Below, one piece after another: positions 28,144-45,782 of a stretch of DNA of 45,861 nt. The DNA comes from Rickettsiales bacterium. Its GTDB lineage: Bacteria > Pseudomonadota > Alphaproteobacteria > Rickettsiales > UBA1997. Location of the stretch: NCBI GenBank assembly GCA_947425005.1, contig CANDYP010000002.1, forward strand, positions 1-45,861. Reading direction: 5' to 3'. The position numbers and the translations under genes were made by a program. Numbering within the stretch: the stretch's first letter is position 1; the number at the start of each line of letters is the position of its first letter. Under the pieces are notes generated by a model, which had not been told where the DNA came from, did no database searches, and was given only the letters and a program-made list of their open reading frames with translations.

Positions 28144-29673
28144 ATGAAATTATTTTTTTATTTTGCTTTCGCGATTCTGCTGCAAGCCGCACCAGTCTTG
28201 GCTAAAACTTACGACCTCGAAATCAAAAAGCAGAAAGTTTTTGTCACGGGAAAGGCGGTTGAGGCATTTACAATCAACGACACGATTCCTGGTCCAACCT
28301 TGCGCTTCAAGGAGGGAGAGGATGTTGAGATTCGCGTAAAAAATTCTTCCGATGAGACAACTTCGATTCATTGGCACGGAATTTTACTGCCGGGCAAGAT
28401 GGATGGTGTGCCCGGACTCAACGGTTTTGAAGGCATCGCGCCGGGTAAAACTTTTACTTACAAATTCAAAATTCGCCAAAACGGAACTTACTGGTACCAC
28501 TCGCATTCGAACCTGCAGGAGCAGCGTGGAATGTACGGGGCGATTGTGATTGAGCCGCGTAATTCTAAGCCTCAACCCGATCACGTGATTTTACTTTCCG
28601 ACTTTTCCGAAGAAAATCCGCAGCGAATTTTAGACAATCTCAAACTCGATTCCGGCTACTACAATTACAACAAACGTACGATTTTTACTTTCTTCAGCGA
28701 CGTCAAAAAAGACGGATTTTTTGCGACGTTAAAAGATCGAATGTCTTGGGGTCAGATGCGGATGGATCCTACGGATCTCTCGGATGTCAGTCGTTACCAT
28801 TTTTTAATTAACGACAAAACGGCGCAGCAAAATTATTGGATACCGACGACGGAAAAATGGACTCGCCTTCGCTTCATCAACGCCGGCGCAATGACTTTTT
28901 TTGACGTTTCGATTCCTAATTTAAAAATGAAAGTAGCCGCCGCGGATGGTCAAAACATTAAGCCCGTAACGGTTGACGAATTCAGAATTGCCCCGGCAGA
29001 AACTTACGATGTGATCGTTGAACCTAAGAACGACAAGGCTTACACGATTTTCGCCGAGTCGATTGATCGCACCGGATATGCTCGCGCAACGCTTGCACCA
29101 AGGCCAGACATGATCGCAGAAATTCCGGCAATGCGCCCACGAACCTTGTTAACAATGTCTGACATGGCGATGAATTCTAAGATGGGCGAGATGGACATGA
29201 GTGCAAAAAGCGGTTGGGCTAATGCTTCAACTCCCGCGGGACACAAGGCTTTGAGCTATTCCGATTTAATTTCTGCAACGCCGCAAAAAGATTTGCGTGA
29301 GCCGATTCGCGAAATTGAATTTCGTTTTGGTGGCACGATGAATCGCTACATTTGGACGATTAACGGCGAAAAATTTCCCTCACCGATTCACTTAAAATTC
29401 GGCGAGCGCGTGCGTTTGAAATTTATTAACGAGACGATGATGGCCCATCCGGTGCACCTTCACGGCATGTTCGTGCAATTAGAAAATGGCCAGCCAATGA
29501 AGTGGATGCCAAATAAACACACGGTGATCGCACCTCCCGGGCAAACGGTTTCAACGCTTTTGACGGTGGATGAAGAAGGCGAGTGGGCCTTTCATTGCCA
29601 CCTGCTTTACCACATGGCGACGGGGATGATGAGTAGTGTTACGGTTGAGAGGGGCGAAAAAAATGTTGAGTAA
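28144..29673 (+). CDS. copA: Copper-resistance multicopper oxidase
   Basis: 509 aa with a signal peptide. Cu-site motifs HWHG, WYHSH, HPVHLHG and HCHLLYHMATGMM, plus a short Met-rich stretch. Confidence 0.9.
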   Translation: MKLFFYFAFAILLQAAPVLAKTYDLEIKKQKVFVTGKAVEAFTINDTIPGPTLRFKEGEDVEIRVKNSSDETTSIHWHGILLPGKMDGVPGLNGFEGIAPGKTFTYKFKIRQNGTYWYHSHSNLQEQRGMYGAIVIEPRNSKPQPDHVILLSDFSEENPQRILDNLKLDSGYYNYNKRTIFTFFSDVKKDGFFATLKDRMSWGQMRMDPTDLSDVSRYHFLINDKTAQQNYWIPTTEKWTRLRFINAGAMTFFDVSIPNLKMKVAAADGQNIKPVTVDEFRIAPAETYDVIVEPKNDKAYTIFAESIDRTGYARATLAPRPDMIAEIPAMRPRTLLTMSDMAMNSKMGEMDMSAKSGWANASTPAGHKALSYSDLISATPQKDLREPIREIEFRFGGTMNRYIWTINGEKFPSPIHLKFGERVRLKFINETMMAHPVHLHGMFVQLENGQPMKWMPNKHTVIAPPGQTVSTLLTVDEEGEWAFHCHLLYHMATGMMSSVTVERGEKNVE

Positions 29674-30535
29674 AATTCAAAATCACCTCCAGCCGCATTA
29701 CCCCCTGCTGTCAGTTGAGCAACAACCCCTTCCGTCGGTTGAGCGGAGTCGAAACCCCGTGAGTTCGGCTTCATTACCGCAGCCAAACTCACGTAGTTTC
29801 AGCTCCGCTCAACCGACGGCTGGGGTTTTTTTAATTTTATTATTTCTACTCTTCGCCCCACAAAATCTTTTCGCCGCAATGAATCACGGCTCTGATCACC
29901 AGCAAATTTTTCACGCTTTTATTTTGGAGGGCGATGTCGGTCACGATCACGATGGATCAGCCAAGGCATTGAGTTTAAACGGTTGGATAGGCGGTGATCT
30001 AAATCGTCTTTGGATCAAAAACGAAACGAAGTCTTTTGGAAAATACGACACTCAAAATGAAACTCAGCTGCTTTACGGCAGAAATATTTCGCAATTTTGG
30101 GACGCACAAATTGGGGTTCGTCACGACATTAAAACCGACTTTTCTTCTCACAGCGTAGATTACTTAACCCTTGGCCTTGAAGGCTTAGCGCCTTATCTTT
30201 TTGAAACCGAGGCGCAAGTTTTTGTCAGTAATGAAGGAAATTACAGCGCGCATTTAAAGCAAGAATTTGACATTTTTCTGACGCAAAAATTAATCACTCA
30301 ACCTTATTTCGAAGCCGATTTTTTTGCGCAAAATGTACCGAAATTGAAAGTGAGTTCTGGTCTGTCAGAGGTTGAGATTGGCCTGTTGACGCGTTACGAA
30401 ATCACTCGCCGTTTTGCGCCGTATTTCGCCGTGCGCTACAATCGCAAAACTTTCGGCACGGCGGATTTAGCTAAACAATACGGCGATCGAGTTGGCGATT
30501 TTATTGCCGGGGCGGGTTTGCGGTTGAGGTTTTGA
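29663..30535 (+). CDS. copB: Copper-resistance outer-membrane protein CopB, with a repeat-derived N-terminal extension
   Basis: The ATG at 29663 overlaps the copA stop by 11 nt. The CopB core is WIGGDLNRLWIKNE...LLYGRNISQFWDAQIGVRHD...YFAVRY, ending in RF. The hydrophobic signal segment (GVFLILLFLLFAPQNLFA) lies ~55 aa from the ATG. Confidence 0.78.
   Translation: MLSKIQNHLQPHYPLLSVEQQPLPSVERSRNPVSSASLPQPNSRSFSSAQPTAGVFLILLFLLFAPQNLFAAMNHGSDHQQIFHAFILEGDVGHDHDGSAKALSLNGWIGGDLNRLWIKNETKSFGKYDTQNETQLLYGRNISQFWDAQIGVRHDIKTDFSSHSVDYLTLGLEGLAPYLFETEAQVFVSNEGNYSAHLKQEFDIFLTQKLITQPYFEADFFAQNVPKLKVSSGLSEVEIGLLTRYEITRRFAPYFAVRYNRKTFGTADLAKQYGDRVGDFIAGAGLRLRF
29726..29825. repeat. ~100-bp palindromic element inside the copB 5' coding region
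   Basis: ccccttccgtcggttgagcggag (29726-29748) is the reverse complement of ctccgctcaaccgacggctgggg (29803-29825). The inner pair is cgtgagtt/aactcacg. A T7 run follows. There is a partial tandem copy, gtcagttgagcaaca, just upstream. Confidence 0.8.
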
Positions 30536-30680: not shown

Positions 30681-31940
30681 ATGACAAAAGAAATAATCAC
30701 CCTGCCAAACGGCTTGCGCGTTGCTGTTGATGAAATGAAAGAAGTGGAAACCGTGTCGGTTGGTGTGTTTGTGAACACCGGAAGTCGCAACGAAATTCCG
30801 GAAATTAACGGCATCTCACACTTCCTTGAGCACATGGCGTTCAAGGGCACAGCAAAAAGATCGGCGCGACAAATTGCAGAAGAATTTGAAGGAATTGGTG
30901 GTCGGATTAACGCTTACACCTCGAAAGAAAAAACAGTTTACTACGCCAAAGTATTGAAGAAACACGCCGAGTTCGCGGTCGAATTTCTGGCCGACATTTT
31001 ACAGAACTCAACTTTCGATTCAGTGGAATTGGAAAAAGAACGCGGTGTAATTTTGCAAGAAATCGCAATGACCAACGACACGCCGGACGACATTGTTTTC
31101 GATTATTTTCAAGAAGCGGCTTACCCTACACAAGCCCTTGGGCGTTCGATCTTAGGCCCTGTCAAAAACATTAAAAAATTCGGGCGCGATCATTTTGTCG
31201 ACTACATTGCCAAGCAATACAACTACCAAAACATGTGTGTAGTTGCGGCGGGAAATATTAAAGAAGCAGATTTGGTGAAGTGGACGAAAAAATATTTCAA
31301 CCAACTTGGCGACAATAAAATCAAGCCTGTAGAGGCGGCGAAATATTCTGGTGGTGATTTCAGAAAAGAAAAAAAGCTCGAGCAAATTAATTTAGTGATG
31401 GGCTTCAAAGGCTTGCCTTATTTGCACAAAGACTATTACGCCTCGCAAATTTTGGCGATGGTTTTGGGGGGAGGAATGTCTTCGCGATTGTTTCAAGAAG
31501 TGCGGGAGAATCGCGGATTGGCCTATTCGGTTTACGCTTTCAACTACTCGCATCACGATTCTGGATTGTTTGGAATTTACGCCGGAACGACACCGGAAAA
31601 AACTAACGAATTAATTTCGGCGACTTGCTCCGAAGTTAAAAAAATCTGCGAAAAAATTTCCGACAAAGAATTGCAAAGAGTGAGAACGCAATTTGAAGCG
31701 AGCTTGTTAATGGCGAAAGAAAGCACGAGCACGAGAATGCAAAAACTCGGCGGCGACATTTTTTCGCACGGTCGTTTGATTTCGGATGAAGAGATTTTGA
31801 AAAAAGTTTTGGCGGTGAAAAAGGCGGATGTGACAAGAATTGCGGAAGAAATTTTTAGCGGCTCGAAGCCGACATTCGCGGCGGTGGGGAAGGTGGCTAA
31901 GGTGATGGAGCTTACGAAGGTGCGGAAGTTGTTTAAGTAG
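30681..31940 (+). CDS. M16-family zinc peptidase (mitochondrial-processing-peptidase-like)
   Basis: 419 aa. Inverted zincin motif HFLEHMAFKG with a downstream E (GVILQEI), and the two-domain M16 layout. Confidence 0.9.
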   Translation: MTKEIITLPNGLRVAVDEMKEVETVSVGVFVNTGSRNEIPEINGISHFLEHMAFKGTAKRSARQIAEEFEGIGGRINAYTSKEKTVYYAKVLKKHAEFAVEFLADILQNSTFDSVELEKERGVILQEIAMTNDTPDDIVFDYFQEAAYPTQALGRSILGPVKNIKKFGRDHFVDYIAKQYNYQNMCVVAAGNIKEADLVKWTKKYFNQLGDNKIKPVEAAKYSGGDFRKEKKLEQINLVMGFKGLPYLHKDYYASQILAMVLGGGMSSRLFQEVRENRGLAYSVYAFNYSHHDSGLFGIYAGTTPEKTNELISATCSEVKKICEKISDKELQRVRTQFEASLLMAKESTSTRMQKLGGDIFSHGRLISDEEILKKVLAVKKADVTRIAEEIFSGSKPTFAAVGKVAKVMELTKVRKLFK

Positions 31941-32142: not shown

Positions 32143-33069
32143 TTAAAAATTGTACCCCAAAATCATTTTGTACAAATTCTGCGGCACTAGCTGATTGCCG
32201 TTTACGTTGCGGTAAATTGGGAATTCTACGTCGGCGTAAAGTTTGAAATCGTTGAAGCTTAGCTCGATTCCCGGAGCGAAGAAAATCTGAGTGTAGCCGC
32301 TGCTTAAATTGTGATCGTAAGTTGCCCAGCCGGAATCTTGAGTTTTCTTTGAACCAGTCACCTGCGCAATCGGAGCTACTTTTTTTAATCCAAAAAATGA
32401 TCCGGCATTGTAATAAATTCCACTAGCGCCGGAAACTTCGTCGCCAGGATGGTAACCGCGGTGGATGATTGCAGGATGTTCCCACGAAGCTTGCGCGAAA
32501 TAATTAAATTTTCCTGCTTCGTCAACTTGCCCCATGTGGTAAGCGCCCAAGATTGTATCTGTGCTGCCGGTGCCGATTTGTGTGGTGCGGCTGAAAGTTT
32601 TGACGCTGCTACTTCCGGTTGGAAGTTTTAGGCCGAAAGTAATTCCGGTCGACATGTCGGAAAAAAATCCTGAGTAAATTCCGTTAACACGAATGTCGCC
32701 GACGTCGCTGTGTCTCGAGTAAGACATGCCGCTGTGGTGAGGAAGAGTTTGTACGTAACGAGTTACGTAAGGAATACGAATCGCCGCGCCCCACTCGCGA
32801 TTGAACATGTATTGCGTGCCGGCGGTAACGGTTTGGGTGTTAATGCGTCTGTCGTGATTGTGCCCATTGGAGTCTTTAGTTTTGCTCCAGTTCTGCGCTT
32901 GGTCCATGTAATCGTACTGCAAAAACGCCGTACCGCCTTGACGATTAGGAATCAGGGCGCTGGTGCCAACATTAAAAACCCCACAGCCACAAGCGCAGGC
33001 GAGGGCATCGCTTGCAAATAAGACGAGCAAAAAAAGCGCAGCGCAAAACTGTTGGTAGAAATTTTTCAT
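32143..33069 (-). CDS. Outer-membrane beta-barrel protein with N-terminal CACGCG motif
   Basis: 308 aa with a signal peptide ending ...ASDALA. Alternating amphipathic strands and the C-terminal ...MILGYNF (terminal Phe) are typical of OMPs. The family is uncertain (possibly MetA/phenol-degradation-like transporter). Confidence 0.65.
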   Translation of the reverse strand: MKNFYQQFCAALFLLVLFASDALACACGCGVFNVGTSALIPNRQGGTAFLQYDYMDQAQNWSKTKDSNGHNHDRRINTQTVTAGTQYMFNREWGAAIRIPYVTRYVQTLPHHSGMSYSRHSDVGDIRVNGIYSGFFSDMSTGITFGLKLPTGSSSVKTFSRTTQIGTGSTDTILGAYHMGQVDEAGKFNYFAQASWEHPAIIHRGYHPGDEVSGASGIYYNAGSFFGLKKVAPIAQVTGSKKTQDSGWATYDHNLSSGYTQIFFAPGIELSFNDFKLYADVEFPIYRNVNGNQLVPQNLYKMILGYNF

Positions 33070-33212
33070 TAATCTTTGGCTTGTTGAATTATGCCGATCA
33101 ATCAGCGGCAGGGGGGTAAATTTCGGGCAGAAACTAATTGCAGCTCACAAAAGTGACAGATATTTTCTTCGCCCCTACAAAAATTGTCCCTCCCAAAATA
33201 AATTTCAAAAAA

Positions 33213-35693
33213 ATGACAGAAGTAGAAAGCCGCAAGGAATTGTTTAACGTGGAAGCAGAGCAGGCAGTGCTCGGCACAATTATTTTAAACAACGAATATT
33301 TAAATCGTGTTTCAGAATTCTTGCGTGAGGAACATTTTTACGAGCCGGCGCATCAGAGAATTTACGCGCAGATTTTGCACAATGTGGAGAAGGTCAACAT
33401 CATTGCCAATCAAGTTACGCTGAAGCAATTTTTTGAATCCGATCCTGCGATTAAAGCAATCGGCGGCGTGATTTATCTTTCGACGCTTTTGGGTTCAGCC
33501 TCGGCAATCATTGATATTGCTGACTACGGACGCTTGATTCACGACTTGGCTTTGAAGCGTTCGCTCTCAATGGTTGGAGAAGAGATCGTCAATCGCGTTT
33601 ACAAAGTGGAAGAAAAAACTTCGGCGACGGAACAGATCGAACTTGCTGAAGCCACGCTGTTCAAGCTTTCAGAGCATGGCAACGGTCGCAGTGATTTTCG
33701 CAGCATTTCCACTTCACTCAAAGAAACTCTCGACAAAACAATCATTGCCAGACAGCGCGACAGCCACATCAGCGGCGTCTCCACGGGGTTGACCGATCTA
33801 GACAAAATCCTCAGCGGCATGCAGCAATCCGACCTAATCATCCTCGCCGGACGTCCGTCAATGGGGAAGGCTCAGCCGCTTAATGCTAAGATTTTAACTA
33901 CTTCGGGCTGGAAAAAAATGGGGGAGTTAAAAATTGGTGACAAGCTAGCATCCACTGATGGCAAGGCTTCAAAGGTAAAGGGTATTTTTCCGCAAGGCAA
34001 AAAACAAATTTATCGCATTACATTTTCTGACGGTCGTTCAGCCGAATGTTGTGCCGAGCATTTGTGGAAAATTCATTGTCGTCATTTTGAAGAGGCGCGA
34101 ATTCTCTCGACGGAAAAGGTTATTTCAATGTTGGAAAAAAAGCGTTACCAGAATCGTCTCTGGATTGATACAGTGTCGGGTGATTTTGGTGACGACAAAA
34201 AATTACCACTAGATCCGTGGCTGCTTGGCGCCTTGATTGGCGACGGTACGTTATCCGGTGGCGCGGTGCGCTTCTCGACTGCCAGTGAGGAAATGTTAAA
34301 AATTCTGGCGAAAAAAATTGGCAAAGATTTCTTGATCCAACATGCCGGAAAATACGACTACCGGATTATTCAAAGTAAAGGCATTCATCACAAAGGTCTT
34401 GAGGGAGTAAGTAAAAACGGGATCAAAGAATCGCTAAAAAAATTAGGATTGTGGGATATTGTAAGTGAGCAAAAATTTATTCCTGAGCAATATTTTCAAG
34501 CTGATCACAAGTCTCGTCTCGAGCTTTTACAAGGTTTGATTGATACTGACGGTTGGGTTGAAAAATTTGGCGCCTTGCGTTTTTGCACCGTTAGCAAAAA
34601 GCTTGCTGATGATGTGGTGATGCTTGTGCGTTCGCTTGGAGCCGTTGCTTCTCTTTCTTCTAAACAAACTTCTTACACTCACAAAGGTGAAAAAAAGTCG
34701 GGTCAAACTGCTTTTGTGATTAACATTTCTCACGTAAATCAAAAAACTTTTGCTTCCCTGTCGGATAAGGTGAAGCGCATGGAGCAAGGGCGCAAGCGTC
34801 AGAATCGCCTCACCATTACCGAGATTGAAATGACTCGCAAAGCTGAAGCGCAATGCATTTCCGTAACTCATCCGGACCATCTTTATATTACTGATGATTA
34901 CGTGGTAACGCACAACACGGCACTCGCAATCAACGTGGCTGTAAATGCCTGCAAGTTTTTGAATCACAGTGGAGTTGAGGCGAAGGACAAAAAGGCGGTG
35001 GGGTTTTTTTCGCTCGAGATGTCGGCGGATCAGCTGTCAGCGCGTATTCTTTCAATGGAGAGCAGCATTAATGCGACGAAATTTCGCACGGGGCAATTGA
35101 GCGACATTGAGTGGGAAGCAATCGCCACGCGCTCTGCCGAGATTTCAAAATTGCCGTTTTTTATTGACGACACGCCGGCGCTTTCGATTGCGGCGCTTCG
35201 TACGCGTACGCGCAGAATGGTGCGTAAACACAACCTGGCGTTTTTGTTGGTGGATTATTTGCAGCTGATTCGCGGCTCTTCGACTCGCTCGAATGACGGT
35301 CGGGTGCAGGAAATTTCTGAGATCACGCAAGGTTTAAAGGCGATCGCGAAAGAGTTTAATATTCCGGTGATTGCGCTGTCGCAATTGTCGCGCGCGGTGG
35401 AGCAGAGGGACGACAAGAGGCCGCAACTTTCAGATCTGCGTGAGTCGGGTTCGATTGAGCAAGACGCCGATGTGGTGGCCTTCATCTACCGCGAGAGTTA
35501 TTATTTTGAACGCAAAAAACCGCCGGAAACTGATCGTGAGCAGTTTGAACAATGGTCGCAAAAAATGAATGAGCTGCGTCACGTTTCGGAGGTAATCATC
35601 GCCAAGCAGCGTAATGGCCCGATCGGTAAAGTTGATCTTTATTTCGATCCAGAATTCACCCGCTTCGGTAATTTGGATGTGCGGCATTATTAA
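33213..35693 (+). CDS. dnaB: Replicative DNA helicase DnaB, interrupted by an intein in the Walker A P-loop
   Basis: Start at MTEVESRKELFNVEAEQAVLG. Exteins: ...LIILAGRPSMGK | TALAINVA..., followed by SLEMS, LLVDYLQL, ALSQLSR and KQRNGP. The two exteins sum to ~477 aa, a normal DnaB size. Confidence 0.93.
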   Translation: MTEVESRKELFNVEAEQAVLGTIILNNEYLNRVSEFLREEHFYEPAHQRIYAQILHNVEKVNIIANQVTLKQFFESDPAIKAIGGVIYLSTLLGSASAIIDIADYGRLIHDLALKRSLSMVGEEIVNRVYKVEEKTSATEQIELAEATLFKLSEHGNGRSDFRSISTSLKETLDKTIIARQRDSHISGVSTGLTDLDKILSGMQQSDLIILAGRPSMGKAQPLNAKILTTSGWKKMGELKIGDKLASTDGKASKVKGIFPQGKKQIYRITFSDGRSAECCAEHLWKIHCRHFEEARILSTEKVISMLEKKRYQNRLWIDTVSGDFGDDKKLPLDPWLLGALIGDGTLSGGAVRFSTASEEMLKILAKKIGKDFLIQHAGKYDYRIIQSKGIHHKGLEGVSKNGIKESLKKLGLWDIVSEQKFIPEQYFQADHKSRLELLQGLIDTDGWVEKFGALRFCTVSKKLADDVVMLVRSLGAVASLSSKQTSYTHKGEKKSGQTAFVINISHVNQKTFASLSDKVKRMEQGRKRQNRLTITEIEMTRKAEAQCISVTHPDHLYITDDYVVTHNTALAINVAVNACKFLNHSGVEAKDKKAVGFFSLEMSADQLSARILSMESSINATKFRTGQLSDIEWEAIATRSAEISKLPFFIDDTPALSIAALRTRTRRMVRKHNLAFLLVDYLQLIRGSSTRSNDGRVQEISEITQGLKAIAKEFNIPVIALSQLSRAVEQRDDKRPQLSDLRESGSIEQDADVVAFIYRESYYFERKKPPETDREQFEQWSQKMNELRHVSEVIIAKQRNGPIGKVDLYFDPEFTRFGNLDVRHY
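33870..34916 (+). mobile_element. DnaB intein (349 aa) with LAGLIDADG homing-endonuclease domain; class-3-like (Ala1, Trp-B12, Cys-F4, Thr-G5)
   Basis: It begins AQPLNAKILT right after GRPSMGK and ends ...DDYVVTHN before Thr+1. Block B is CAEHLW (H308, W310). Block F is AQCISV (C573). Block G is VVTHN. The LAGLIDADG motifs are LLGALIGDG and LLQGLIDTDG. Confidence 0.9.
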
Positions 35694-35782: not shown

Positions 35783-36088
35783 GTGAAAAACGTAAAAATG
35801 ACAATTAATGTTCCGGAAGATCTTTACAAAATGATCAAGGTTCAATCAGCGGTTAATGGCTCTACCATTAAGGATTACGTGGTGGGGACTATTTCTAATT
35901 CGATGAAAAGTGGGAGGGATGAATCTAATAAAAAAAGCGTAAAAATTTCTGCAAATTTAAGAAAAAAAATTCCTAACAAAACGACGATCAGAGCTTTGAA
36001 AGAGTACGAACAAGGTAAGTTTACCACTTACAAAAGTTCTGAAGAATTATTCGCAAAATTGGATGAGATAGTAAAAAAGAATAGTTAA
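35783..36088 (+). CDS. dinJ: DinJ/RelB-family antitoxin
   Basis: RHH-like N-terminus (INVPEDLYKMIK). The C-terminus PNKTTIRALKEYEQGKFTTYKSSEELFAKLDEI parallels the E. coli DinJ C-terminus PNQLTIQSIKNSEAG...DADDLFDKLGI. The start is GTG 35783 (AGGT 5 nt upstream) or ATG 35798. Confidence 0.8.
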   Translation: MKNVKMTINVPEDLYKMIKVQSAVNGSTIKDYVVGTISNSMKSGRDESNKKSVKISANLRKKIPNKTTIRALKEYEQGKFTTYKSSEELFAKLDEIVKKNS

Positions 36089-36091
36089 AAA

Positions 36092-36364
36092 ATGCTTGAA
36101 ACAATCACCACAAAAACCTTCGACAGAGACTACGCTAAAATAGTCAGACAGGGCAAAAAAATAGAAAAAATTAATCTTGTGATCAGGCTCCTACAAGAAG
36201 GTCTGAAGTTGAATTTAAAATATCGAGATCACAAGCTAACTGGCGTCTACAAAGGATGGAGAGACTGTCACGTTGAACCTGATTGGTTGCTGATTTACAA
36301 AATTTCTAAAAACTTTTTGATACTAGAGCGAACTGGTACTCATTCGGAATTGTTCAAAAAATAA
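36092..36364 (+). CDS. yafQ: YafQ-family mRNA-interferase toxin (RelE/ParE superfamily)
   Basis: 90 aa. F.RDY.K, DHKLTG.....RDCHVEPDWLLIY and RTGTHSELF are YafQ hallmarks. The gene starts 3 nt after the antitoxin stop. Confidence 0.88.
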   Translation: MLETITTKTFDRDYAKIVRQGKKIEKINLVIRLLQEGLKLNLKYRDHKLTGVYKGWRDCHVEPDWLLIYKISKNFLILERTGTHSELFKK

Positions 36365-40940: not shown

Positions 40941-43900
40941 ATGGAAAAAATGGAAAATCTGATTGAGCAGCTAATTAATTTTTCTCATCAAAAAAAATAC
41001 GAAAAAACTTTTTCTCGTGAAAAATTTTTGGATTTCGCCAAGTTGTTTTATTTACAAAACCAAGGACGTGATTTTGTAAATTATCCCGTGGAAGAGCTTC
41101 ACAACGCCACTCTTCTAAGTTTCAGTTTTGCGGCAGAAAAGCTCAAAATTTTTAAAGTTAGAATTTACAATCCGACGGTGGATGTAGATGGTTTCAATTC
41201 CACCAATACTTTTTTAGAAGTAATTAGCGACGACATGCCATTCTTGGTAGATTCAATCGTTGGCTATCTAGATCGCATCGGCATCAGAATTAAAAATATT
41301 ATTCATCCGATTTACCCAATAGTTCGCACTAAAAATGGCGAGTTGGAGTCAATAGAAGCGACAGAAAATTCTAAACAAGAGTCAGTAATTCAGCTGCATT
41401 TGGATAAAATTACTTCCGAGTCAGACATCCAAATGCTGCAAGAAAGCATTTCTAAAATTATTGAGACTTTGGTGCTGGTAGTTGGCGATTGGAAGAAGAT
41501 GACCGAAGTAGCAAAAAAATCACAAAAACAAATCGATAACGCCAAAAAACTTATCAAAGACCTTAAAGAAATTGACGAGAGCAAAGATTTTATCTCGTGG
41601 ATTCTCGACGGAAATTTTATCTTTTTAGGCGCTAAAGAATTCGATATTAAGGAATTTGAAAAAGGTGAGCATCATCTTGTGGAAGTTGAAAACTCGGGGC
41701 TTGGAGTTTTTCAGTCACCTTACGCCGATGTCACTCCGGAGGTTTTAAATTCATCTTTTGAAGAGGTTGGCGATTCTCTTAAAAATCCTTACGTAATTGA
41801 AATTTTAAAATCTCGCTACAGATCCCGCATCCACAGAATTTCTAACGCCGAAAGAATCAGAGTTCAGAAAGTTTCTGAAGACGGCAAGGTCATCGGCGAA
41901 TACAGGTTTGTCGGATTATTCACGTCTTCAGCTTACAGCCACAGCCCCACTTCCATTCCTCTAATCAAAAATAAAATCGCCAAAGTTGTCGCCGATTCAA
42001 ATTTCACAAAAGGCAGCCACAACCACAAAGAGTTAATTTCAATTCTTGAGTCTTATCCGCGCGACGAATTATTTCAAACCAACGCCGCAGATTTATTGCG
42101 CATCGCCACCGGCATCGTGGCCATTTGCGGCAGATCGCAAGTTAGATTTTTCCCGCGCAAAGATAAATACAGTCGCTTCGTCAGCTGTTTAATTTTTACA
42201 CCAAGAGACCGCAGCAATTCTGACTTGAGAGAAAAAATAAAAGATTACCTCGCCGAAATTTATAACGGCGAAATTGCCGACTCTTTCGTAGAAATCACCG
42301 AATCAAAACTGATTAGATTTCACGTAATCGTGCGCACCAATAATGGCATTCCGGCCATTGACAGCGCTAAAGTTGAGCGTGAAATCACCAACATGACTAA
42401 GGTCTGGAGCGATGATCTTAGAGAAGCGATCGCAGCAAAATTTGAAAATGAAAAACAGATCGCTTTATTCGCAAAATATCGCGACGCCTTCTCTGTCAGT
42501 TACGTTAACAGATTTGATCCAAAACGTGCAGCAATCGACATTGCAAGGGTTGAAGACTGCTTAAACAAAAATTCAATTTTATTTAATCTTTACAAATCTT
42601 CGGAAGCTTTGGCGGATGAAGTCACCGAATTAAAAATCTACAATCCTCAGAAAAAGCTGATTCTTTCTGAAATCATGCCAGTTCTTGAAAGCTTTGGTTT
42701 CAACGTAATCCAAGAACACACTTACGTAGTCAGTCCAGAAATAGACGACAGAAAAAACTCGCAGACCAAAGTTTGGATCCACTATTTCCACCTCAATCTC
42801 AGTAAAGGCGGCGATAAATTTGCCGAAAAAACCAAGCATAATTTTGAAAAAGCTGTTGCCCTAATTTGGCAAAAAATTACTGACGTAAGTCTGCTTAACA
42901 GATTGGTAGTCGCTTCTGATCTAGACTGGAAGCAGATCTACATGCTGCGCGCCTACACAAAATACATTTACCAAGCCGGCTTCAAATACAGTCAAAGTTA
43001 CATCTCGGATGCTTTGGTAAGAAATCGCGATCTCACTAAATTGTTGGTAGAGCTTTTCGAAACTAAATTTAATCCGCATCTCAAGCTCAGCATGTCAGAA
43101 AGATGCAAAAAAGCTGACGAGATTTCTGCCAACATCACCAAGAGCTTGATCAAAGTTAAAGACATTCTTGATGACGCCGTAATTAAAAGATTCTTCAACG
43201 TCATCAAAGCGACTTTGCGCACTAACTACTACCAGCCATCCAAAGAAGGTGGCTTCAAGGGTTACGTCTCATTTAAGTTTGATTGTAAGCAAGTTCTGGA
43301 CCTGCCATTGCCACTACCTCACGCTGAAATTTTTGTTTATTCAGCAGTCATGGAAGGTATTCATTTGCGCGGTGGACGCGTTGCTCGCGGCGGATTACGT
43401 TGGTCAGATCGTCACGAAGATTTCCGTACTGAAGTTTTGGGCTTGATGAAAGCGCAAATGACTAAAAATGCCGTGATCGTTCCGGTCGGCTCAAAAGGCG
43501 GCTTCGTAGTAAAAAAACCAACGGCAAATTTAAGTCGTGACGAAATTTTGCAAGAAGGCATCTCTTGCTACCAAACTTTTTTACGCGGTCTTTTGGACAT
43601 CACGGACAACGTAATTGATGGCAAAATTGATCATCCACAAAACTGCATCATGCACGATGATTCTGATCCTTACCTAGTGGTTGCAGCCGATAAAGGCACA
43701 GCAACTTTCTCCGACATCGCTAACGGAATTTCTGCCGAATATAATTTTTGGCTGGGCGACGCTTTTGCTTCTGGTGGATCAGTTGGTTACGATCACAAAA
43801 AAATGGGCATTACCGCTAAAGGCGCGTGGATCTCGGTTAAAAGACACTTTGCTGAGATGGGCATCGACACTCAAACCCAAGATTTTACCTGTGTCGGTAT

Positions 43901-45782
43901 TGGCGATTTAGCCGGCGACGTGTTTGGTAATGGCATGTTGCTATCGCCGCACATCAAGATGGTAGCGGCTTTCAACCACATGCATATTTTCTTCGATCCA
44001 AATCCAAACCCAACAGAATCTTTCGCCGAAAGAGTGCGCATGTTTAATCTACCTCGTTCAACCTGGATGGATTACAACCAATCTTTGATTTCTAAAGGTG
44101 GTGGAATTTTCGAAAGAGCTGCCAAATCAATTAAAATTTCCTCGGAAGTAAAAGCGGTTTTGGCAATTGAAGAAGACGAGCTTGAGCCTAACGAATTGAT
44201 CAAAGCAATTCTGCAAGCTCCTGTTGATTTATTGTGGAATGGCGGCATCGGAACTTACGTAAAAGCCGCCGATGAATCTCACCAAGATGTAGGAGATCGC
44301 GCTAACGACATGCTTCGAATCAATGGTTCTGATCTCAGATGTAAAGTAATAGGCGAGGGTGGAAATCTCGGCTTCACCCAAAAAGGCCGTATTGAATACG
44401 CTTTAAAAGGTGGTCGCGTTAATACTGACGCAATGGATAACTCAGCTGGCGTAGATTGCTCGGATCATGAAGTGAATATTAAAATCGCTTTGATTCAGGC
44501 CATGCGCAGCAAAAAAATTACACTCGAAGAAAGAAATAAAGTTTTAGAAACGATGACGGACGACGTTTCTAATCTAGTTCTTGCTGACAACAGACTGCAA
44601 ACTCAAGCAATCTCCATCGCTTCTTCGCAAGGCGTATCAAACCTCGGTGACCAGGCGCAATTTTTAGACAGATTAGAAAAGACCGGATTGTTAAATCGCA
44701 AAATCGAGTTTTTACCTTCCAAAAAAGAAATCGATAAAAGACAAACTGATCGCGTGGGCATGACCAGGCCAGAGCTTTGCGTGATGTTGGCCTATTCCAA
44801 AATGGACATCTACAACGCGCTTTTAACCTCTGACTTGATCAAGGATAAATATTTCGAAAGTGAGCTACTTTCTTACTTCCCGAAATTATTGCAGAAAAAA
44901 TTCTCCGACGAAATCATTGGCCATCAACTAAGAAACGAGATCATCGCCACTCAAATTACCAACTTCGTAGTTAACAGAGCTGGAATAACTTTTGTTAATC
45001 AGCTTTGTCAAGATAGCGGCTTTGCAATTGGTGATGTGGTGAAGAGCTTCATCATCGCTTGTGACTCGTTCAGATTGCGCGAAATTTGGGAAGAGATTGA
45101 AAAATTAGACGGAAAAATTGCGCCGCACATTCAAGCGCAAATGTTTTTGAGTGCCAGCAAGTTACTGGAAAGATCAGTGCTGTGGTTGCTACGCAATCAA
45201 GCGAAAGGCAGCATTTCACCAATTATCACGCGCTTTAGAAAAATTGCCGATGAGTTGTCCTCTTTGTTGTCAGAAGTTTTAGCTCAAGCATCTCGCGAAT
45301 CTTTCGAACGTAAAATTGAAAGATATTGCCTGAATAATGTTGATCGCAAACTAGCAAATAAGATCGCCTCTCTTGATCCACTAGCATCAGTTTTTGATAT
45401 TGCAGAAATCTCTGCGGCATCAAGTTTTGATCTCAAAGTTATTGCTAAAATTTACTTTGCTGTCGGCACAAGATTTTCGTTGAAATGGTTACGCACCAAG
45501 GTTGCAAGCGCCAGTCACGATAATTATTGGCAAAAGCTTTCCGGTAAAACTATTCTTGAAGATCTTTACAGTTACCAAATGAGAATCGCGAAATGCGTTG
45601 TTGATTCCAGTTGTAACGACAAGAACCTTTGTGAAGTAGATTCCCTGAGTAGCTGGATTACCAAAGCCAGTTTCTTGGTGGAAAGATTCGACAATTTTAT
45701 TGCCGAATTAAAAACTCAGCCAAATCCCGATATGTCGGTTTTTGTTGTTGCTCTAAATCGTTTGAAACCTTTGGTGAAGTAG
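40941..45782 (+). CDS. NAD-specific glutamate dehydrogenase, large (~180 kDa) class
   Basis: 1613 aa. The central catalytic block is RGGLRWSDR...VPVGSKGGFV...VAADKGTATFSD...GGSVGYDHKKMGITA...GDLAGDVFGNGML. The size and layout match the Bac_GDH family. Confidence 0.93.
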   Translation: MEKMENLIEQLINFSHQKKYEKTFSREKFLDFAKLFYLQNQGRDFVNYPVEELHNATLLSFSFAAEKLKIFKVRIYNPTVDVDGFNSTNTFLEVISDDMPFLVDSIVGYLDRIGIRIKNIIHPIYPIVRTKNGELESIEATENSKQESVIQLHLDKITSESDIQMLQESISKIIETLVLVVGDWKKMTEVAKKSQKQIDNAKKLIKDLKEIDESKDFISWILDGNFIFLGAKEFDIKEFEKGEHHLVEVENSGLGVFQSPYADVTPEVLNSSFEEVGDSLKNPYVIEILKSRYRSRIHRISNAERIRVQKVSEDGKVIGEYRFVGLFTSSAYSHSPTSIPLIKNKIAKVVADSNFTKGSHNHKELISILESYPRDELFQTNAADLLRIATGIVAICGRSQVRFFPRKDKYSRFVSCLIFTPRDRSNSDLREKIKDYLAEIYNGEIADSFVEITESKLIRFHVIVRTNNGIPAIDSAKVEREITNMTKVWSDDLREAIAAKFENEKQIALFAKYRDAFSVSYVNRFDPKRAAIDIARVEDCLNKNSILFNLYKSSEALADEVTELKIYNPQKKLILSEIMPVLESFGFNVIQEHTYVVSPEIDDRKNSQTKVWIHYFHLNLSKGGDKFAEKTKHNFEKAVALIWQKITDVSLLNRLVVASDLDWKQIYMLRAYTKYIYQAGFKYSQSYISDALVRNRDLTKLLVELFETKFNPHLKLSMSERCKKADEISANITKSLIKVKDILDDAVIKRFFNVIKATLRTNYYQPSKEGGFKGYVSFKFDCKQVLDLPLPLPHAEIFVYSAVMEGIHLRGGRVARGGLRWSDRHEDFRTEVLGLMKAQMTKNAVIVPVGSKGGFVVKKPTANLSRDEILQEGISCYQTFLRGLLDITDNVIDGKIDHPQNCIMHDDSDPYLVVAADKGTATFSDIANGISAEYNFWLGDAFASGGSVGYDHKKMGITAKGAWISVKRHFAEMGIDTQTQDFTCVGIGDLAGDVFGNGMLLSPHIKMVAAFNHMHIFFDPNPNPTESFAERVRMFNLPRSTWMDYNQSLISKGGGIFERAAKSIKISSEVKAVLAIEEDELEPNELIKAILQAPVDLLWNGGIGTYVKAADESHQDVGDRANDMLRINGSDLRCKVIGEGGNLGFTQKGRIEYALKGGRVNTDAMDNSAGVDCSDHEVNIKIALIQAMRSKKITLEERNKVLETMTDDVSNLVLADNRLQTQAISIASSQGVSNLGDQAQFLDRLEKTGLLNRKIEFLPSKKEIDKRQTDRVGMTRPELCVMLAYSKMDIYNALLTSDLIKDKYFESELLSYFPKLLQKKFSDEIIGHQLRNEIIATQITNFVVNRAGITFVNQLCQDSGFAIGDVVKSFIIACDSFRLREIWEEIEKLDGKIAPHIQAQMFLSASKLLERSVLWLLRNQAKGSISPIITRFRKIADELSSLLSEVLAQASRESFERKIERYCLNNVDRKLANKIASLDPLASVFDIAEISAASSFDLKVIAKIYFAVGTRFSLKWLRTKVASASHDNYWQKLSGKTILEDLYSYQMRIAKCVVDSSCNDKNLCEVDSLSSWITKASFLVERFDNFIAELKTQPNPDMSVFVVALNRLKPLVK

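What the first reader, a model, noticed from the sequence alone, without database searches (positions are those of the whole stretch)
33870..34916. Class-3-type intein with LAGLIDADG endonuclease splitting the DnaB P-loop
The Walker A motif of DnaB reads GRPSMGK | [349 aa] | TALAINVA. The insert ends in the canonical ...VVTHN followed by Thr+1, and it carries two LAGLIDADG motifs (LLGALIGDG, LLQGLIDTDG).

Its first residue is Ala (gct, 33870-33872), so it lacks the Cys/Ser nucleophile of class-1 inteins. It does carry the triplet used to define class-3 inteins:
- Trp two residues after the block-B His (CAEHLW, W at nt 34065-34067)
- Cys at the block-F position normally held by Asp (AQCISV, C at nt 34854-34856)
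- Thr before the terminal His-Asn (T at nt 34908-34910)

Class-3 inteins splice through a branched thioester on the block-F Cys. They were first described in a phage DnaB at the P-loop. Finding one with an intact-looking homing endonuclease in an essential gene of a likely intracellular alphaproteobacterium is uncommon. It also suggests horizontal exchange, possibly with phage.
Basis: partly seen in the sequence, partly recalled or inferred. Interest (0 to 1): 0.66.

Follow-up and report, generated by a model that had tools for sequence, protein, structure and literature searches.

The report
Class 3 intein in DnaB P-loop

Summary
dnaB (33213..35693, +) carries a 1047-bp in-frame insert (33870..34916) between the Walker A Lys and Thr codons. 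The closest relatives (93% and 89% identical DnaB) have an uninterrupted GRPSMGK-TALAIN at the same syntenic locus.

The insert shows every sequence feature that defines class 3 inteins:
- Ala1
- His64 (B:10)
- Trp66 (B:12)
- Cys329 (F:4)
- Thr347 (G:5), His348, Asn349
- Thr+1

These residues align column for column with the biochemically characterised Bethlehem prototype (W67/C320/T339) and with the M. smegmatis DnaBi1 crystal structure. An AlphaFold model (pLDDT 91.6) matches PI-SceI (TM 0.73). Both catalytic LAGLIDADG aspartates are present, and the endonuclease is as constrained as the splicing domain.

The element is not rare. Relatives occur in 535 GTDB species genomes, mostly at this same DnaB site. 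The best matches (61-74%) are 'Rickettsiales bacterium' MAGs. There are also at least 580 viral contigs and 864 phage records, including the helicase of Stx2a-converting phages.

Three side claims are weak. The prototype's host protein is a terminase, not a DnaB. Viral relatives are at most 46% identical, so no recent phage transfer is shown. An intracellular lifestyle was not tested.

Verdict: a new member of a known kind, of low interest. Splicing chemistry and endonuclease activity remain inferred.

The parts
33213..33869 (+). dnaB N-extein (219 codons from the ATG at 33213; an in-frame TTG lies upstream at 33138). Ends in the first half of Walker A, GRPSMGK.
   Evidence: Pfam DnaB N-terminal domain and DnaB_C; NCBIfam replicative DNA helicase PRK09165, 638 bits against a cut-off of 540. 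The public gene call is 826 aa. 92% and 89% extein identity to the intein-less P0122 and P0123.
33870..34916 (+). The whole intein: 349 codons, Ala1 to Asn349.
   Evidence: Exact 1047-bp in-frame gap against the intein-less alleles L002 and L003. Homologous inteins at E = 1e-124. AlphaFold model with pLDDT 91.6 and pTM 0.90. Foldseek match to PI-SceI, TM 0.73.
33870..34109 (+). N-terminal splicing (HINT) region, about residues 1-80, holding blocks A and B. Key codons: Ala1 33870-72; Cys60-Cys61 (B:6, B:7) 34047-52; His64 (B:10) 34059-61; Trp66 (B:12) 34065-67.
   Evidence: phmmer alignment to gp41-1 and to the M. smegmatis class 3 DnaBi1 (6bs8) over residues 4-69. Block alignment with the MP-Be prototype H65/W67. 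His and Trp are invariant in 56 of 56 family members. The domain limit is taken from the model's secondary structure and is approximate.
34110..34808 (+). Linker plus LAGLIDADG (dodecapeptide) homing-endonuclease domain, about residues 81-313. Motif 1 is LLGALIGDG at 34221-34247 (Asp125 at 34242-44). The KFIP motif has Lys202 at 34473-75. Motif 2 is LLQGLIDTDG at 34524-34553 (Asp227 at 34548-50).
   Evidence: Pfam LAGLIDADG_3 (E = 3e-12) and Hom_end. Asp125 and Asp227 align with PI-SceI D218 and D326. Fold match to PI-SceI, TliVMA and PI-PfuI. pN 0.16 against pS 0.69 versus L009, the same as the splicing domain. Equating Lys202 with PI-SceI K301 is inference.
34809..34916 (+). C-terminal splicing region, about residues 314-349, holding blocks F and G. 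Key codons: Cys329 (F:4, the predicted initiating nucleophile) 34854-56; Thr347 (G:5) 34908-10; His348 34911-13; Asn349 34914-16.
   Evidence: Aligns with MP-Be C320/T339/H340/N341 and with M. smegmatis DnaBi1 RCVEV...PTHN. Cys, Thr, His and Asn are invariant in 56 of 56 members and in 169 parsed family members.
34917..35693 (+). dnaB C-extein, starting with Thr+1 (34917-19). This is the Walker A Thr and the second nucleophile. The stop codon is included.
   Evidence: TALAINVA continues the Walker A motif of the intein-less homologues. Pfam DnaB_C covers 592-845 of the 851-aa frame. Extein pN 0.06-0.07 against pS 0.66-0.68 versus L002 and L003.

Best explanation
This is a full-length, bifunctional class 3 intein sitting at the DnaB-b site, the P-loop between Lys and Thr, of the chromosomal replicative helicase gene.

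Predicted splicing mechanism:
1. The DnaB precursor (826 aa) is translated with its Walker A motif split, so it cannot bind or hydrolyse ATP until it is spliced.
2. Because residue 1 is Ala, splicing starts with the thiol of Cys329 (block F:4). This is activated by His64 (B:10) and Thr347 (G:5), with Trp66 (B:12) packing the active site. The thiol attacks the Lys(-1)-Ala1 peptide bond and forms a branched thioester on block F.
3. The N-extein is passed to the hydroxyl of Thr+1, forming the block G branched ester.
4. Asn349 cyclises, assisted by His348, and releases the intein.
5. An O-to-N acyl shift restores GRPSMGK-TALAIN, that is, an intact P-loop and an active 477-residue DnaB.

The excised intein is a PI-SceI-type LAGLIDADG endonuclease. 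It most likely cuts intein-less dnaB alleles at the P-loop codons, so that repair copies the intein in (homing). This accounts for its patchy distribution among close relatives.

Shown here: the boundaries, all signature residues, the fold, the family membership, and purifying selection on the extein, the splicing domain and the endonuclease domain. Inferred: the chemistry, the splicing competence and the endonuclease activity.
For: - Exact in-frame 1047-bp insertion relative to the syntenic intein-less dnaB of the closest relatives.
- Ala1, H64, W66, C329, T347, H348, N349 and T+1 align with the characterised prototype MP-Be (H65/W67/C320/T339/H340/N341/T+1). They also align with M. smegmatis DnaBi1 6bs8.
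- These are the defining features of class 3 in Tori et al. 2010 (PMC2807308).
- The same K|S/T P-loop site in mycobacterial DnaB was shown biochemically to use the class 3 pathway (PMC5222942; PMC6195587).
- H, W, C, T, H and N are invariant in 56 family members, and Ala1 is present in 165 of 169.
- The model is high-confidence and matches PI-SceI, TliVMA and PI-PfuI over both domains.
- PI-SceI catalytic residues D218 and D326 correspond to D125 and D227.
- The dnaB extein is under strong purifying selection (pN 0.06 against pS 0.66) and scores above the NCBIfam equivalog cut-off. The host therefore depends on this gene and hence on splicing.
- The endonuclease domain is constrained to the same degree as the splicing domain (pN 0.16, pS 0.68-0.69).
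- The distribution is sporadic: the three nearest DnaBs (92, 89 and 88% identical) lack the intein, while six more distant ones (77-81%) carry 61-77% identical inteins.
Against: - No biochemistry was done.
- Beyer et al. 2020 (PMC7664689) showed that grafting W, C, T and Ala1 onto a class 1 intein gives cleavage, not splicing. The signature is therefore necessary but not sufficient.
- Only 45.9 kb of the genome is visible, so a second intact dnaB elsewhere cannot be excluded.
- Synonymous sites are saturated in all comparisons (pS 0.66-0.85), so the dN/dS values are rough and say nothing about very recent loss of endonuclease activity.
- Block B:7 is Cys here, whereas the characterised class 3 inteins have Ser or Asp. 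The fine detail of N-junction activation may therefore differ.
Confidence: 0.85

Rival explanations
1. The intein splices, but its endonuclease is no longer active. On this view it is a 'stranded' element. It persists because it sits in an essential P-loop, where only a base-perfect deletion is tolerated, and not because it is still homing.
For: Endonuclease activity could not be tested. The mycobacterial inteins at the same site have lost the endonuclease entirely (PMC6195587), which shows that persistence without homing does happen at this site. The intein's GC3 (0.40) lies within the range of the window's genes (mean 0.448, sd 0.061), consistent with long residence.
Against: Both LAGLIDADG aspartates and the KFIP lysine motif are intact and near-invariant in the family. 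The endonuclease domain shows the same pN (0.16) as the splicing domain against pS 0.69. Nearly all of the 77 parsed DnaB inteins keep the full length of 339-356 aa. Presence and absence are patchy among DnaBs that are 77-92% identical.
Confidence: 0.3
2. The intein splices by a class 2 (KlbA-like) route. Thr+1 attacks the N-terminal junction directly, without a Cys329 thioester intermediate.
For: Ala1 is shared with the KlbA inteins, and no chemistry was measured here.
Against: Class 2 inteins are defined by the lack of the WCT triplet (PMC2807308), and all three residues are present and invariant here. Every tested intein with this signature, including two at the same DnaB site, needs the F:4 Cys absolutely (PMC5222942).
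Confidence: 0.04
3. The intein is splicing-dead and this dnaB copy is a non-functional or redundant paralogue, with replication served by another helicase gene outside the window.
For: Only one contig is available. WCT plus Ala1 does not by itself guarantee splicing (PMC7664689). An Arthrobacter 'DnaB' intein was shown to be a pseudogene (PMC3196547, title and abstract).
Against: The ORF is intact at 826 aa. The extein has pN 0.06 against pS 0.66. The gene lies at the conserved locus M16 peptidase - dnaB - tsaD - lppC - rsmI, shared with relatives whose dnaB at that locus is uninterrupted. It scores above the equivalog cut-off for replicative helicase. The sequence is identical in a second assembly that differs by 8 SNPs elsewhere.
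Confidence: 0.04

Closest known systems
Mycobacterial DnaB-b inteins: M. smegmatis DnaBi1 / DnaB-1 (PDB 6bs8), M. leprae DnaB, M. chimaera DnaB-1 (6rix)
   Same: They use the same host protein and the same insertion point, between the P-loop Lys and the Ser/Thr that becomes +1 (FGVGK|...|STLGL against PSMGK|...|TALAI). They share Ala1 and W (B:12), C (F:4), T (G:5), H and N. Their class 3 mechanism has been shown biochemically (PMC5222942, PMC6195587).
   Different: The mycobacterial inteins are 139-145-residue mini-inteins without an endonuclease, whereas this one keeps a full LAGLIDADG domain. Sequence identity is only about 29% over the N-terminal splicing region. The +1 residue is Thr rather than Ser. 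B:7 is Cys rather than Asp. The host is an alphaproteobacterial MAG, not an actinobacterium.
Mycobacteriophage Bethlehem 'MP-Be DnaB' intein, the class 3 prototype (Tori et al. 2010)
   Same: It has the same overall architecture: 341 aa, HINT plus LAGLIDADG endonuclease, a non-nucleophilic residue 1, W67/C320/T339/H340/N341 and Thr+1. Every signature column aligns. The endonuclease of this intein was shown to be active (PMC5050341).
   Different: Identity is 27%. Residue 1 is Pro after Gln-1, not Ala after Lys. The host protein is a terminase large subunit (site TerL1-c), not DnaB, and the site is not the P-loop.
The uncharacterised 'K|AQPL...EHLW...QCI...VTHN|T' intein family in bacterial DnaB and in phage P-loop ATPases (PhoH, DnaA/IstB-like, AAA_24, and the DnaB-type helicase of Stx2a-converting phages)
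   Same: The window's intein belongs to this family directly. It is 61-77% identical to inteins in DnaB of related MAGs and 51-59% identical to DnaB inteins in Caulobacterales, Burkholderiales, Phycisphaerae, Rokubacteria, Blastocatellia and cable bacteria. It is 33-46% identical to phage and PhoH versions. All sit after the P-loop Lys, with the same length and the same blocks.
   Different: Nothing qualitative. It is a new allele in a lineage, freshwater 'Rickettsiales'-labelled MAGs, for which no intein has been described in the papers searched.
PI-SceI (Sce VMA1 intein), the structural archetype of intein-borne LAGLIDADG endonucleases
   Same: It has the same two-domain fold (TM 0.73, E = 5e-16). 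Catalytic D218 and D326 align with D125 and D227.
   Different: PI-SceI is a class 1 intein (Cys1, Cys+1) in a eukaryotic V-ATPase. Identity is 15-16%, and it is larger (454 aa), with an extra DNA-recognition region.

Membership tests
Class 3 inteins (Tori et al. 2010, PMC2807308) | Non-nucleophilic residue at intein position 1 (not Cys, Ser or Thr) | tested here: met
   Ala (gct, 33870-72). The boundary is fixed by the exact gap against the intein-less alleles.
Class 3 inteins (Tori et al. 2010, PMC2807308) | Trp at block B position 12, two residues after the B:10 His | tested here: met
   H64-L-W66 aligns with MP-Be H65-G-W67 and M. smegmatis H65-Q-W67. Invariant in 56 of 56 members.
Class 3 inteins (Tori et al. 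2010, PMC2807308) | Cys at block F position 4 | tested here: met
   C329 (AQCISV) aligns with MP-Be C320 (VKCIGI) and M. smegmatis C118 (VRCVEV). Invariant.
Class 3 inteins (Tori et al. 2010, PMC2807308) | Thr at block G position 5, followed by His-Asn | tested here: met
   T347-H348-N349 aligns with MP-Be T339-H340-N341. Invariant.
Class 3 inteins (Tori et al. 2010, PMC2807308) | [quoted passage not shown] | tested here: met
   Thr+1 (acg, 34917-19), which is the Walker A Thr.
Class 3 inteins (Tori et al. 2010, PMC2807308) | Mechanism: obligate F:4 Cys nucleophile and a block F branched thioester intermediate before the block G branch | not testable with these tools
   Needs mutagenesis and detection of the intermediate. 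WCT alone is not sufficient (PMC7664689).
HINT-fold intein (any class) | Hedgehog/intein fold of the splicing domain, with blocks A, B, F and G flanking the endonuclease insertion | tested here: met
   AlphaFold model with pLDDT 91.6. Foldseek hits to gp41-1, M. smegmatis and M. chimaera DnaB inteins, Prp8, Hedgehog and Ssp DnaB. phmmer hits.
Intein-associated LAGLIDADG (dodecapeptide) homing endonucleases, PI-SceI type | Two LAGLIDADG helices, each ending in a catalytic acidic residue, within the alpha-beta-beta-alpha-beta-beta-alpha double fold | tested here: met
   LLGALIGD125G and LLQGLIDTD227G align with PI-SceI D218 and D326. Pfam LAGLIDADG_3 and Hom_end are above their cut-offs. TM 0.73 to 1lwt.
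Intein-associated LAGLIDADG (dodecapeptide) homing endonucleases, PI-SceI type | Site-specific cleavage of the intein-less allele (homing) | not testable with these tools
   Indirect support only: purifying selection on the domain and patchy presence among close relatives.
DnaB-b (P-loop) intein insertion site | Insertion between the invariant Walker A Lys and the following Ser/Thr of a DnaB-family helicase | tested here: met
   GRPSMGK|intein|TALAINVA against GRPSMGKTALAINIA in P0122-P0124. Mycobacterial DnaB-b is FGVGK|...|STLGL.
Class 1 (standard) inteins | Cys, Ser or Thr at position 1 initiating an N-S/N-O acyl shift | tested here: not met
   Residue 1 is Ala. It is Ala in 165 of 169 family members.
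Class 2 (KlbA-like) inteins | No N-terminal nucleophile and no WCT triplet; Cys+1 attacks the N-junction directly | tested here: not met
   The WCT triplet is present and +1 is Thr. Definition taken from PMC2807308.

The most novel reading that the evidence does not exclude
The Cys60-Cys61 pair at block B:6 and B:7 lies directly before the catalytic His64. B:7 is the position that faces the N-terminal scissile bond and is Thr in class 1 inteins and Asp or Ser in the characterised class 3 inteins. Together with the nucleophile Cys329 and His348, this pair might form a reversible disulfide or a Zn2+ site that blocks splicing. Maturation of the replicative helicase, and hence replication, would then be gated by redox or metal status. 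That would be a built-in, family-wide version of the accidental Cys48-Cys118 trap described for M. smegmatis DnaBi1.

The CC pair is present in about two thirds of 169 family members, so if it is functional it would apply to hundreds of bacterial species and phages. No coordinates were available to measure the S-S distance. The idea rests only on sequence position and analogy.
Probability: 0.12. Interest if true: 0.5.

Novelty: new member of a known kind. Interest (0 to 1): 0.2.

Why it matters
For annotation, the gene should be called an intein-containing replicative helicase: an 826-aa precursor giving a 477-aa mature DnaB and a 349-aa intein endonuclease. It is not an aberrantly long DnaB.

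Biologically, this adds a full-length, endonuclease-bearing class 3 intein at the DnaB P-loop in a little-studied group of freshwater alphaproteobacterial MAGs. Intein-less sister alleles are available, so the set forms a natural homing pair for experiments.

More generally, the searches show that this 'AQPL' class 3 family is very widespread at P-loops of DnaB, PhoH and other ATPases in both bacteria and phages, yet apparently none of its members has been characterised. The characterised class 3 inteins are distant relatives at 27-29% identity. A representative could serve as a new splicing tool or as a test of conditional splicing.

None of this changes current understanding of inteins.

Tried and rejected
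- **Shifted boundaries hiding a Cys/Ser1.** Rejected. The gap against L002 and L003 is exact, and a one-residue shift would give GKAALA instead of GKTALA.
- **Compositional evidence for recent foreign origin.** The intein's GC3 (0.40) is well below that of the dnaB exteins (0.57). It is, however, inside the spread of the window's 30 ORFs (0.448 +/- 0.061). The extein is the outlier, not the intein, so nothing can be concluded.
- **Dating the insertion, or comparing vertical with horizontal spread, by synonymous divergence.** Synonymous sites are saturated everywhere (pS 0.66-0.85), so this is uninformative. The intein and extein identity matrices neither clearly agree nor clearly conflict.
- **Exact-protein look-up of the neighbouring tsaD to identify the organism.** Not on record. 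The organism was approached instead through the DnaB look-ups and the GTDB scan. The window's own genome is not a GTDB species representative (best 74%).
- **Searching the protein database with the intein alone.** This returned only proteins of 611 aa or fewer. It missed the window's own 826-aa protein and the six closest intein-bearing DnaBs, which surfaced only in the extein search. The first list therefore understates close relatives.
- **Bethlehem gp52 'phosphoesterase' and gp62 'DnaB-like helicase' as the prototype host.** gp52 carries a different, class 1 intein (C...GN|S), and gp62 has no intein. The prototype is in gp11.
- **Tori and Perler 2011 (PMC3133030) and the supplementary tables of Tori 2010.** Neither is held.
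- **Rfam and tRNA scans of the window.** They found only one tRNA-Met, far from the locus.
- **Distances between Cys61, Cys329 and the scissile bond in the model.** Coordinates are not exposed by the tools, so these could not be measured.
Full report
**1. What is in the sequence.**
The + strand carries one long ORF from 33138 (TTG) or 33213 (ATG) to 35693. The public protein collection holds the 826-aa version starting at the ATG (P0121). The N-termini of the homologues agree with that start. Pfam and NCBIfam identify it as the replicative helicase DnaB: DnaB N-terminal domain, DnaB_C, and PRK09165 at 638 bits against a cut-off of 540. LAGLIDADG_3 and Hom_end domains sit in the middle.

Reading the DNA gives ...GGA CGT CCG TCA ATG GGG AAG | GCT CAG CCG CTT ... 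GTG GTA ACG CAC AAC | ACG GCA CTC GCA ATC.... That is GRPSMGK | AQPL...VVTHN | TALAI.
- Ala1 at 33870-72
- His64 at 34059-61
- Trp66 at 34065-67
- Cys329 at 34854-56
- Thr347-His348-Asn349 at 34908-16
- Thr+1 at 34917-19

**2. The boundaries are proven by empty sites.**
The two closest DnaB proteins in the 5.8-billion-protein collection are 481 and 478 aa long. They are 92-93% and 89% identical to the window's spliced extein and read GRPSMGKTALAINIA without interruption. Their contigs are syntenic with the window: M16 peptidase ... dnaB - tsaD - lppC-like - rsmI-like methylase. A nucleotide alignment shows one clean 1047-bp gap exactly between the Lys and Thr codons. The insert is therefore an in-frame element of 349 codons, and its first residue really is Ala.

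**3. It is an intein of the class 3 type.**
Tori et al. 2010 (PMC2807308) define class 3 by three things: a non-nucleophilic residue 1; the co-varying triplet Trp (B:12), Cys (F:4) and Thr (G:5); and Ser or Thr at +1. I retrieved the prototype from phage Bethlehem (AY500153 gp11; 341 aa; W67, C320, T339, as in the paper). I aligned it with the window's intein and 54 relatives.
- H64 and W66 fall in the prototype's H65 and W67 columns.
- C329 falls in the C320 column.
- T347-H348-N349 fall in the T339-H340-N341 columns.

HMMER alignment to the crystal-structure sequence of the M. smegmatis class 3 DnaBi1 intein (6bs8) gives the same correspondence: AQHQW against AEHLW, VRCVEV against AQCISV, PTHN against VTHN.

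An AlphaFold2 model of the intein with five flanking residues, built on a 54-sequence alignment, has pLDDT 91.6 and pTM 0.90. Foldseek matches both domains to PI-SceI (TM 0.73, E = 5e-16), TliVMA and PI-PfuI. It matches the splicing part to gp41-1, the M. smegmatis and M. chimaera class 3 DnaB inteins, Prp8 inteins and Hedgehog. Every sequence or fold criterion for membership is met. The mechanistic criterion, an obligate F:4 Cys and a block F branched thioester, cannot be tested in silico.

One caution applies. Beyer et al. 2020 (PMC7664689) found that grafting Ala1 plus W, C and T onto the class 1 gp41-1 intein yields cleavage rather than splicing. The signature is therefore necessary but not sufficient.

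**4. Is it functional?**
The DnaB extein is strongly constrained (pN 0.06-0.07 against pS 0.66-0.68 versus L002 and L003). It sits at the canonical locus. A second assembly of a near-identical strain (GCA_973627075.1; 8 differences in 10,481 bp) has an identical dnaB plus intein. A split Walker A cannot work, so the host must rely on splicing. That step is inference.

The endonuclease looks intact:
- Both LAGLIDADG motifs end in Asp (D125, D227), and these align with the PI-SceI catalytic residues D218 and D326.
- A KFIP motif is near-invariant in the family and probably corresponds to PI-SceI K301 in KNIP. That equivalence is inference.
- The endonuclease domain shows the same non-synonymous divergence as the splicing domain (pN 0.16, pS 0.68-0.69 versus the 74%-identical intein of L009).

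Synonymous sites are saturated, so these ratios are only rough.

**5. Mechanism proposed.**
1. Cys329, in a Cys-His-Thr arrangement with His64 and Thr347 and with Trp66 packing the site, attacks the Lys-Ala1 peptide bond. This gives a block F branched thioester.
2. The N-extein is transferred to Thr+1, giving the block G branched ester.
3. Asn349 cyclises and frees the intein.
4. An O-to-N shift restores the P-loop GKT.

This is the pathway established for the Bethlehem, D. radiodurans Snf2, M. smegmatis DnaB-1, M. leprae DnaB and B. vietnamiensis IcmO inteins (PMC2807308, PMC5222942, PMC6195587). The free intein would then act as a PI-SceI-type homing endonuclease on intein-less dnaB alleles.

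**6. How common is it, and where does it come from?**
- A pattern scan of one genome per GTDB species found 535 genomes encoding a relative.
- Of the best 80, all 77 that could be parsed by the later, stricter pattern lie in DnaB at [GA]RPxMGK|. The most frequent block motifs are CCAEHLW, QCI[AS]V and [IV]VTHN, and most are about 339-356 aa long.
- The three best hits (74, 63 and 61% identity) are MAGs labelled 'Rickettsiales bacterium' from groundwater and lake samples.
- The next hits (51-59%) span Caulobacter and Brevundimonas, Burkholderiales, Phycisphaerae and Tepidisphaerales, Rokubacteria, Blastocatellia and cable bacteria. They include cultured strains: Giesbergeria anulus, Ramlibacter sp. 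WS9, Dyella flagellata and Methylohalomonas lacus.
- Among the 120 DnaB clusters closest to the window's extein, seven including the window's own carry the intein, with pairwise identity to the window's of 61-77%. The three nearest (92, 89 and 88% extein identity) do not. This patchiness is what homing plus loss produces.

The same family also sits after the P-loop Lys of other proteins: PhoH-like, DnaA/IstB-like and AAA_24 proteins in the protein collection, and other GK-type P-loops on viral contigs, at 33-46% identity. tblastn finds it in 864 GenBank phage records. One is the DnaB-type helicase of Stx2a-converting phages, which reads ARPGMGK|AMAL...NHLW...LCIMV...VTHN|TELA.

The family is thus clearly shared between phages and bacteria. 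This agrees with the proposed phage origin of class 3 inteins, a proposal I know only from citations. The nearest viral sequences, however, are far more distant than the bacterial DnaB ones, so nothing points to a recent phage-to-host jump into this genome. Base composition does not help either. The intein's GC3 of 0.40 is typical for the window, and it is the extein (0.57) that is atypical.

**7.
- The prototype 'MP-Be DnaB' intein is not in a DnaB. Its host protein has a TerL_nuclease domain and no DnaB domain. It precedes the portal gene, and its junction is Q|P, not the P-loop K|T. Kelley et al. 2016 name the site TerL1-c. The real same-site precedents are the mycobacterial DnaB-b mini-inteins (FGVGK|...|STLGL).
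- 'Uncommon' is relative. About 0.3% of species representatives carry a relative, which is still hundreds of lineages.
- 'Intracellular' was not examined. The neighbourhood encodes copper oxidase and CopB, an NAD-glutamate dehydrogenase, periplasmic binding proteins and the like, which does not decide the question.
- The residue numbers A245/W310/C573/T591 use the TTG start. With the ATG start they are A220/W285/C548/T566.

**8. What is a little different.**
Block B reads E-C-C-A-E-H-L-W, so Cys occupies both B:6 and B:7. The characterised class 3 inteins have Ser (MP-Be) or Asp (M. smegmatis) at B:7, and class 1 inteins have Thr there. The CC pair occurs in 114 of 169 parsed family members. 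B:7 lies next to residue 1 and the catalytic centre in the M. smegmatis structure (PMC6195587). M. smegmatis DnaBi1 is reversibly inhibited by a disulfide to its F:4 Cys, and according to the title and abstract of PMC7360933 (listed) by zinc. A redox or metal switch is therefore conceivable here. I rate it unlikely to be more than a structural preference (probability about 0.12), because the model coordinates could not be inspected and B:6 is Cys in PI-SceI as well. That last point is from my own reading of the PI-SceI block B sequence and was not tested here.

**9. Verdict.**
The element is a new allele of a known and very widespread kind: a class 3, P-loop, LAGLIDADG-bearing DnaB intein. Interest is low (0.2). 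The useful outputs are a correct annotation, a natural pair of intein-bearing and intein-less alleles for a homing assay, and the note that this large 'AQPL' subfamily has no characterised representative.

Noticed in passing
window 35783..36364 (+): A type II toxin-antitoxin pair sits between dnaB and tsaD: a 101-aa ParD/ribbon-helix-helix-like antitoxin (35783..36088) and a 90-aa YafQ-family toxin (36092..36364, Pfam E = 5e-31). It has the lowest GC in the region (0.32-0.36). It is absent from the relatives L002 and L003, where tsaD follows dnaB within 4-23 bp. This looks like a separate recent insertion next to the intein-bearing gene.
   Followed up: partly
window 33070..33212 compared with L002 2563..3916 and L003 2516..3928: In the intein-less relatives a two-component pair (HisKA sensor kinase plus a response regulator with an HTH_8 domain) lies immediately upstream of dnaB. 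In the window it is missing. dnaB is instead preceded directly by a divergent 308-aa ORF with no Pfam match (32143..33069, -), whose counterpart in L003 lies upstream of the two-component pair.
   Followed up: partly
window 34047..34052 (Cys60, Cys61 of the intein): A Cys-Cys pair occupies block B positions 6 and 7, directly before the catalytic His64. It is conserved in 114 of 169 members of this intein family, but the position is Ser or Asp in the biochemically characterised class 3 inteins. It may be a redox or metal-sensitive site, or it may simply reflect a structural preference.
   Followed up: partly
L008 (phage Bethlehem AY500153 7260..9971): The class 3 prototype known as the 'MP-Be DnaB intein' lies in a 903-aa protein with a TerL_nuclease domain, just upstream of the portal gene. 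Its host is therefore a terminase large subunit, not a DnaB, and the junction (Q|P...N|T) is not a P-loop. The record's annotated 'DnaB-like helicase' gp62 has no intein, and gp52 carries a different, class 1 intein.
   Followed up: yes
L089 298..2691 (Stx2-converting phage Stx2a 981509, LC487996.1): The DnaB-type helicase of Stx2a-converting phages of E. coli O157:H7 carries a homologous class-3-signature intein (41% identical) at the same P-loop site: ARPGMGK|AMAL...NHLW...LCIMV...VTHN|TELA. In many of these records nothing is annotated under it.
   Followed up: partly
P0039, P0048, P0067, P0075, P0099 and others; viral loci L091-L170: The same intein family (33-46% identity, all starting K|AQPL and ending THN|T/S) is inserted after the Walker A Lys of unrelated P-loop proteins. 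These include PhoH-like, DnaA/IstB-like and AAA_24 proteins in the protein collection and other GK-type P-loops on phage contigs. This suggests an endonuclease lineage that follows the P-loop coding sequence across host genes.
   Followed up: partly
window 31393 (L001 position 2181): A second public assembly of a near-identical strain (GCA_973627075.1 contig CCYLYQ010000047.1) differs from the window at 8 of 10,481 positions. The T-to-G difference at 31393 puts a stop codon into the M16 peptidase gene, giving two calls of 237 and 180 aa there against one 419-aa ORF in the window. dnaB and the intein are identical in both.
   Followed up: partly
window 33870..34916 compared with 33213..33869 and 34917..35690: Third-position GC is 0.40 in the intein but 0.57 in the surrounding dnaB exteins. 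The 30 other ORFs of the window average 0.448 (sd 0.061). The extein, not the intein, is therefore the compositional outlier.
   Followed up: yes
window 34527..34967 (-): A 146-aa antisense ORF (GTG start) lies entirely inside the intein and C-extein coding region. No evidence was sought beyond the ORF list. It is most likely a chance ORF on the opposite strand of a coding region.
   Followed up: no
tool behaviour: The protein-database search with the intein alone listed only proteins of 611 aa or fewer. It missed the window's own 826-aa DnaB and six 825-828-aa intein-bearing DnaBs with 61-77% identical inteins. These appeared only when the spliced extein was used as the query. Lists of closest relatives from that tool can therefore be incomplete for domains embedded in long proteins.
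   Followed up: partly
window 40941..45782 (+): A 1613-aa large NAD-specific glutamate dehydrogenase (Bac_GDH catalytic domain, E = 5e-259, with ACT and helical-motif domains). Together with a multicopper oxidase and CopB pair at 28144..30535, it gives no support to the 'intracellular' guess, though it does not settle the lifestyle.
   Followed up: no
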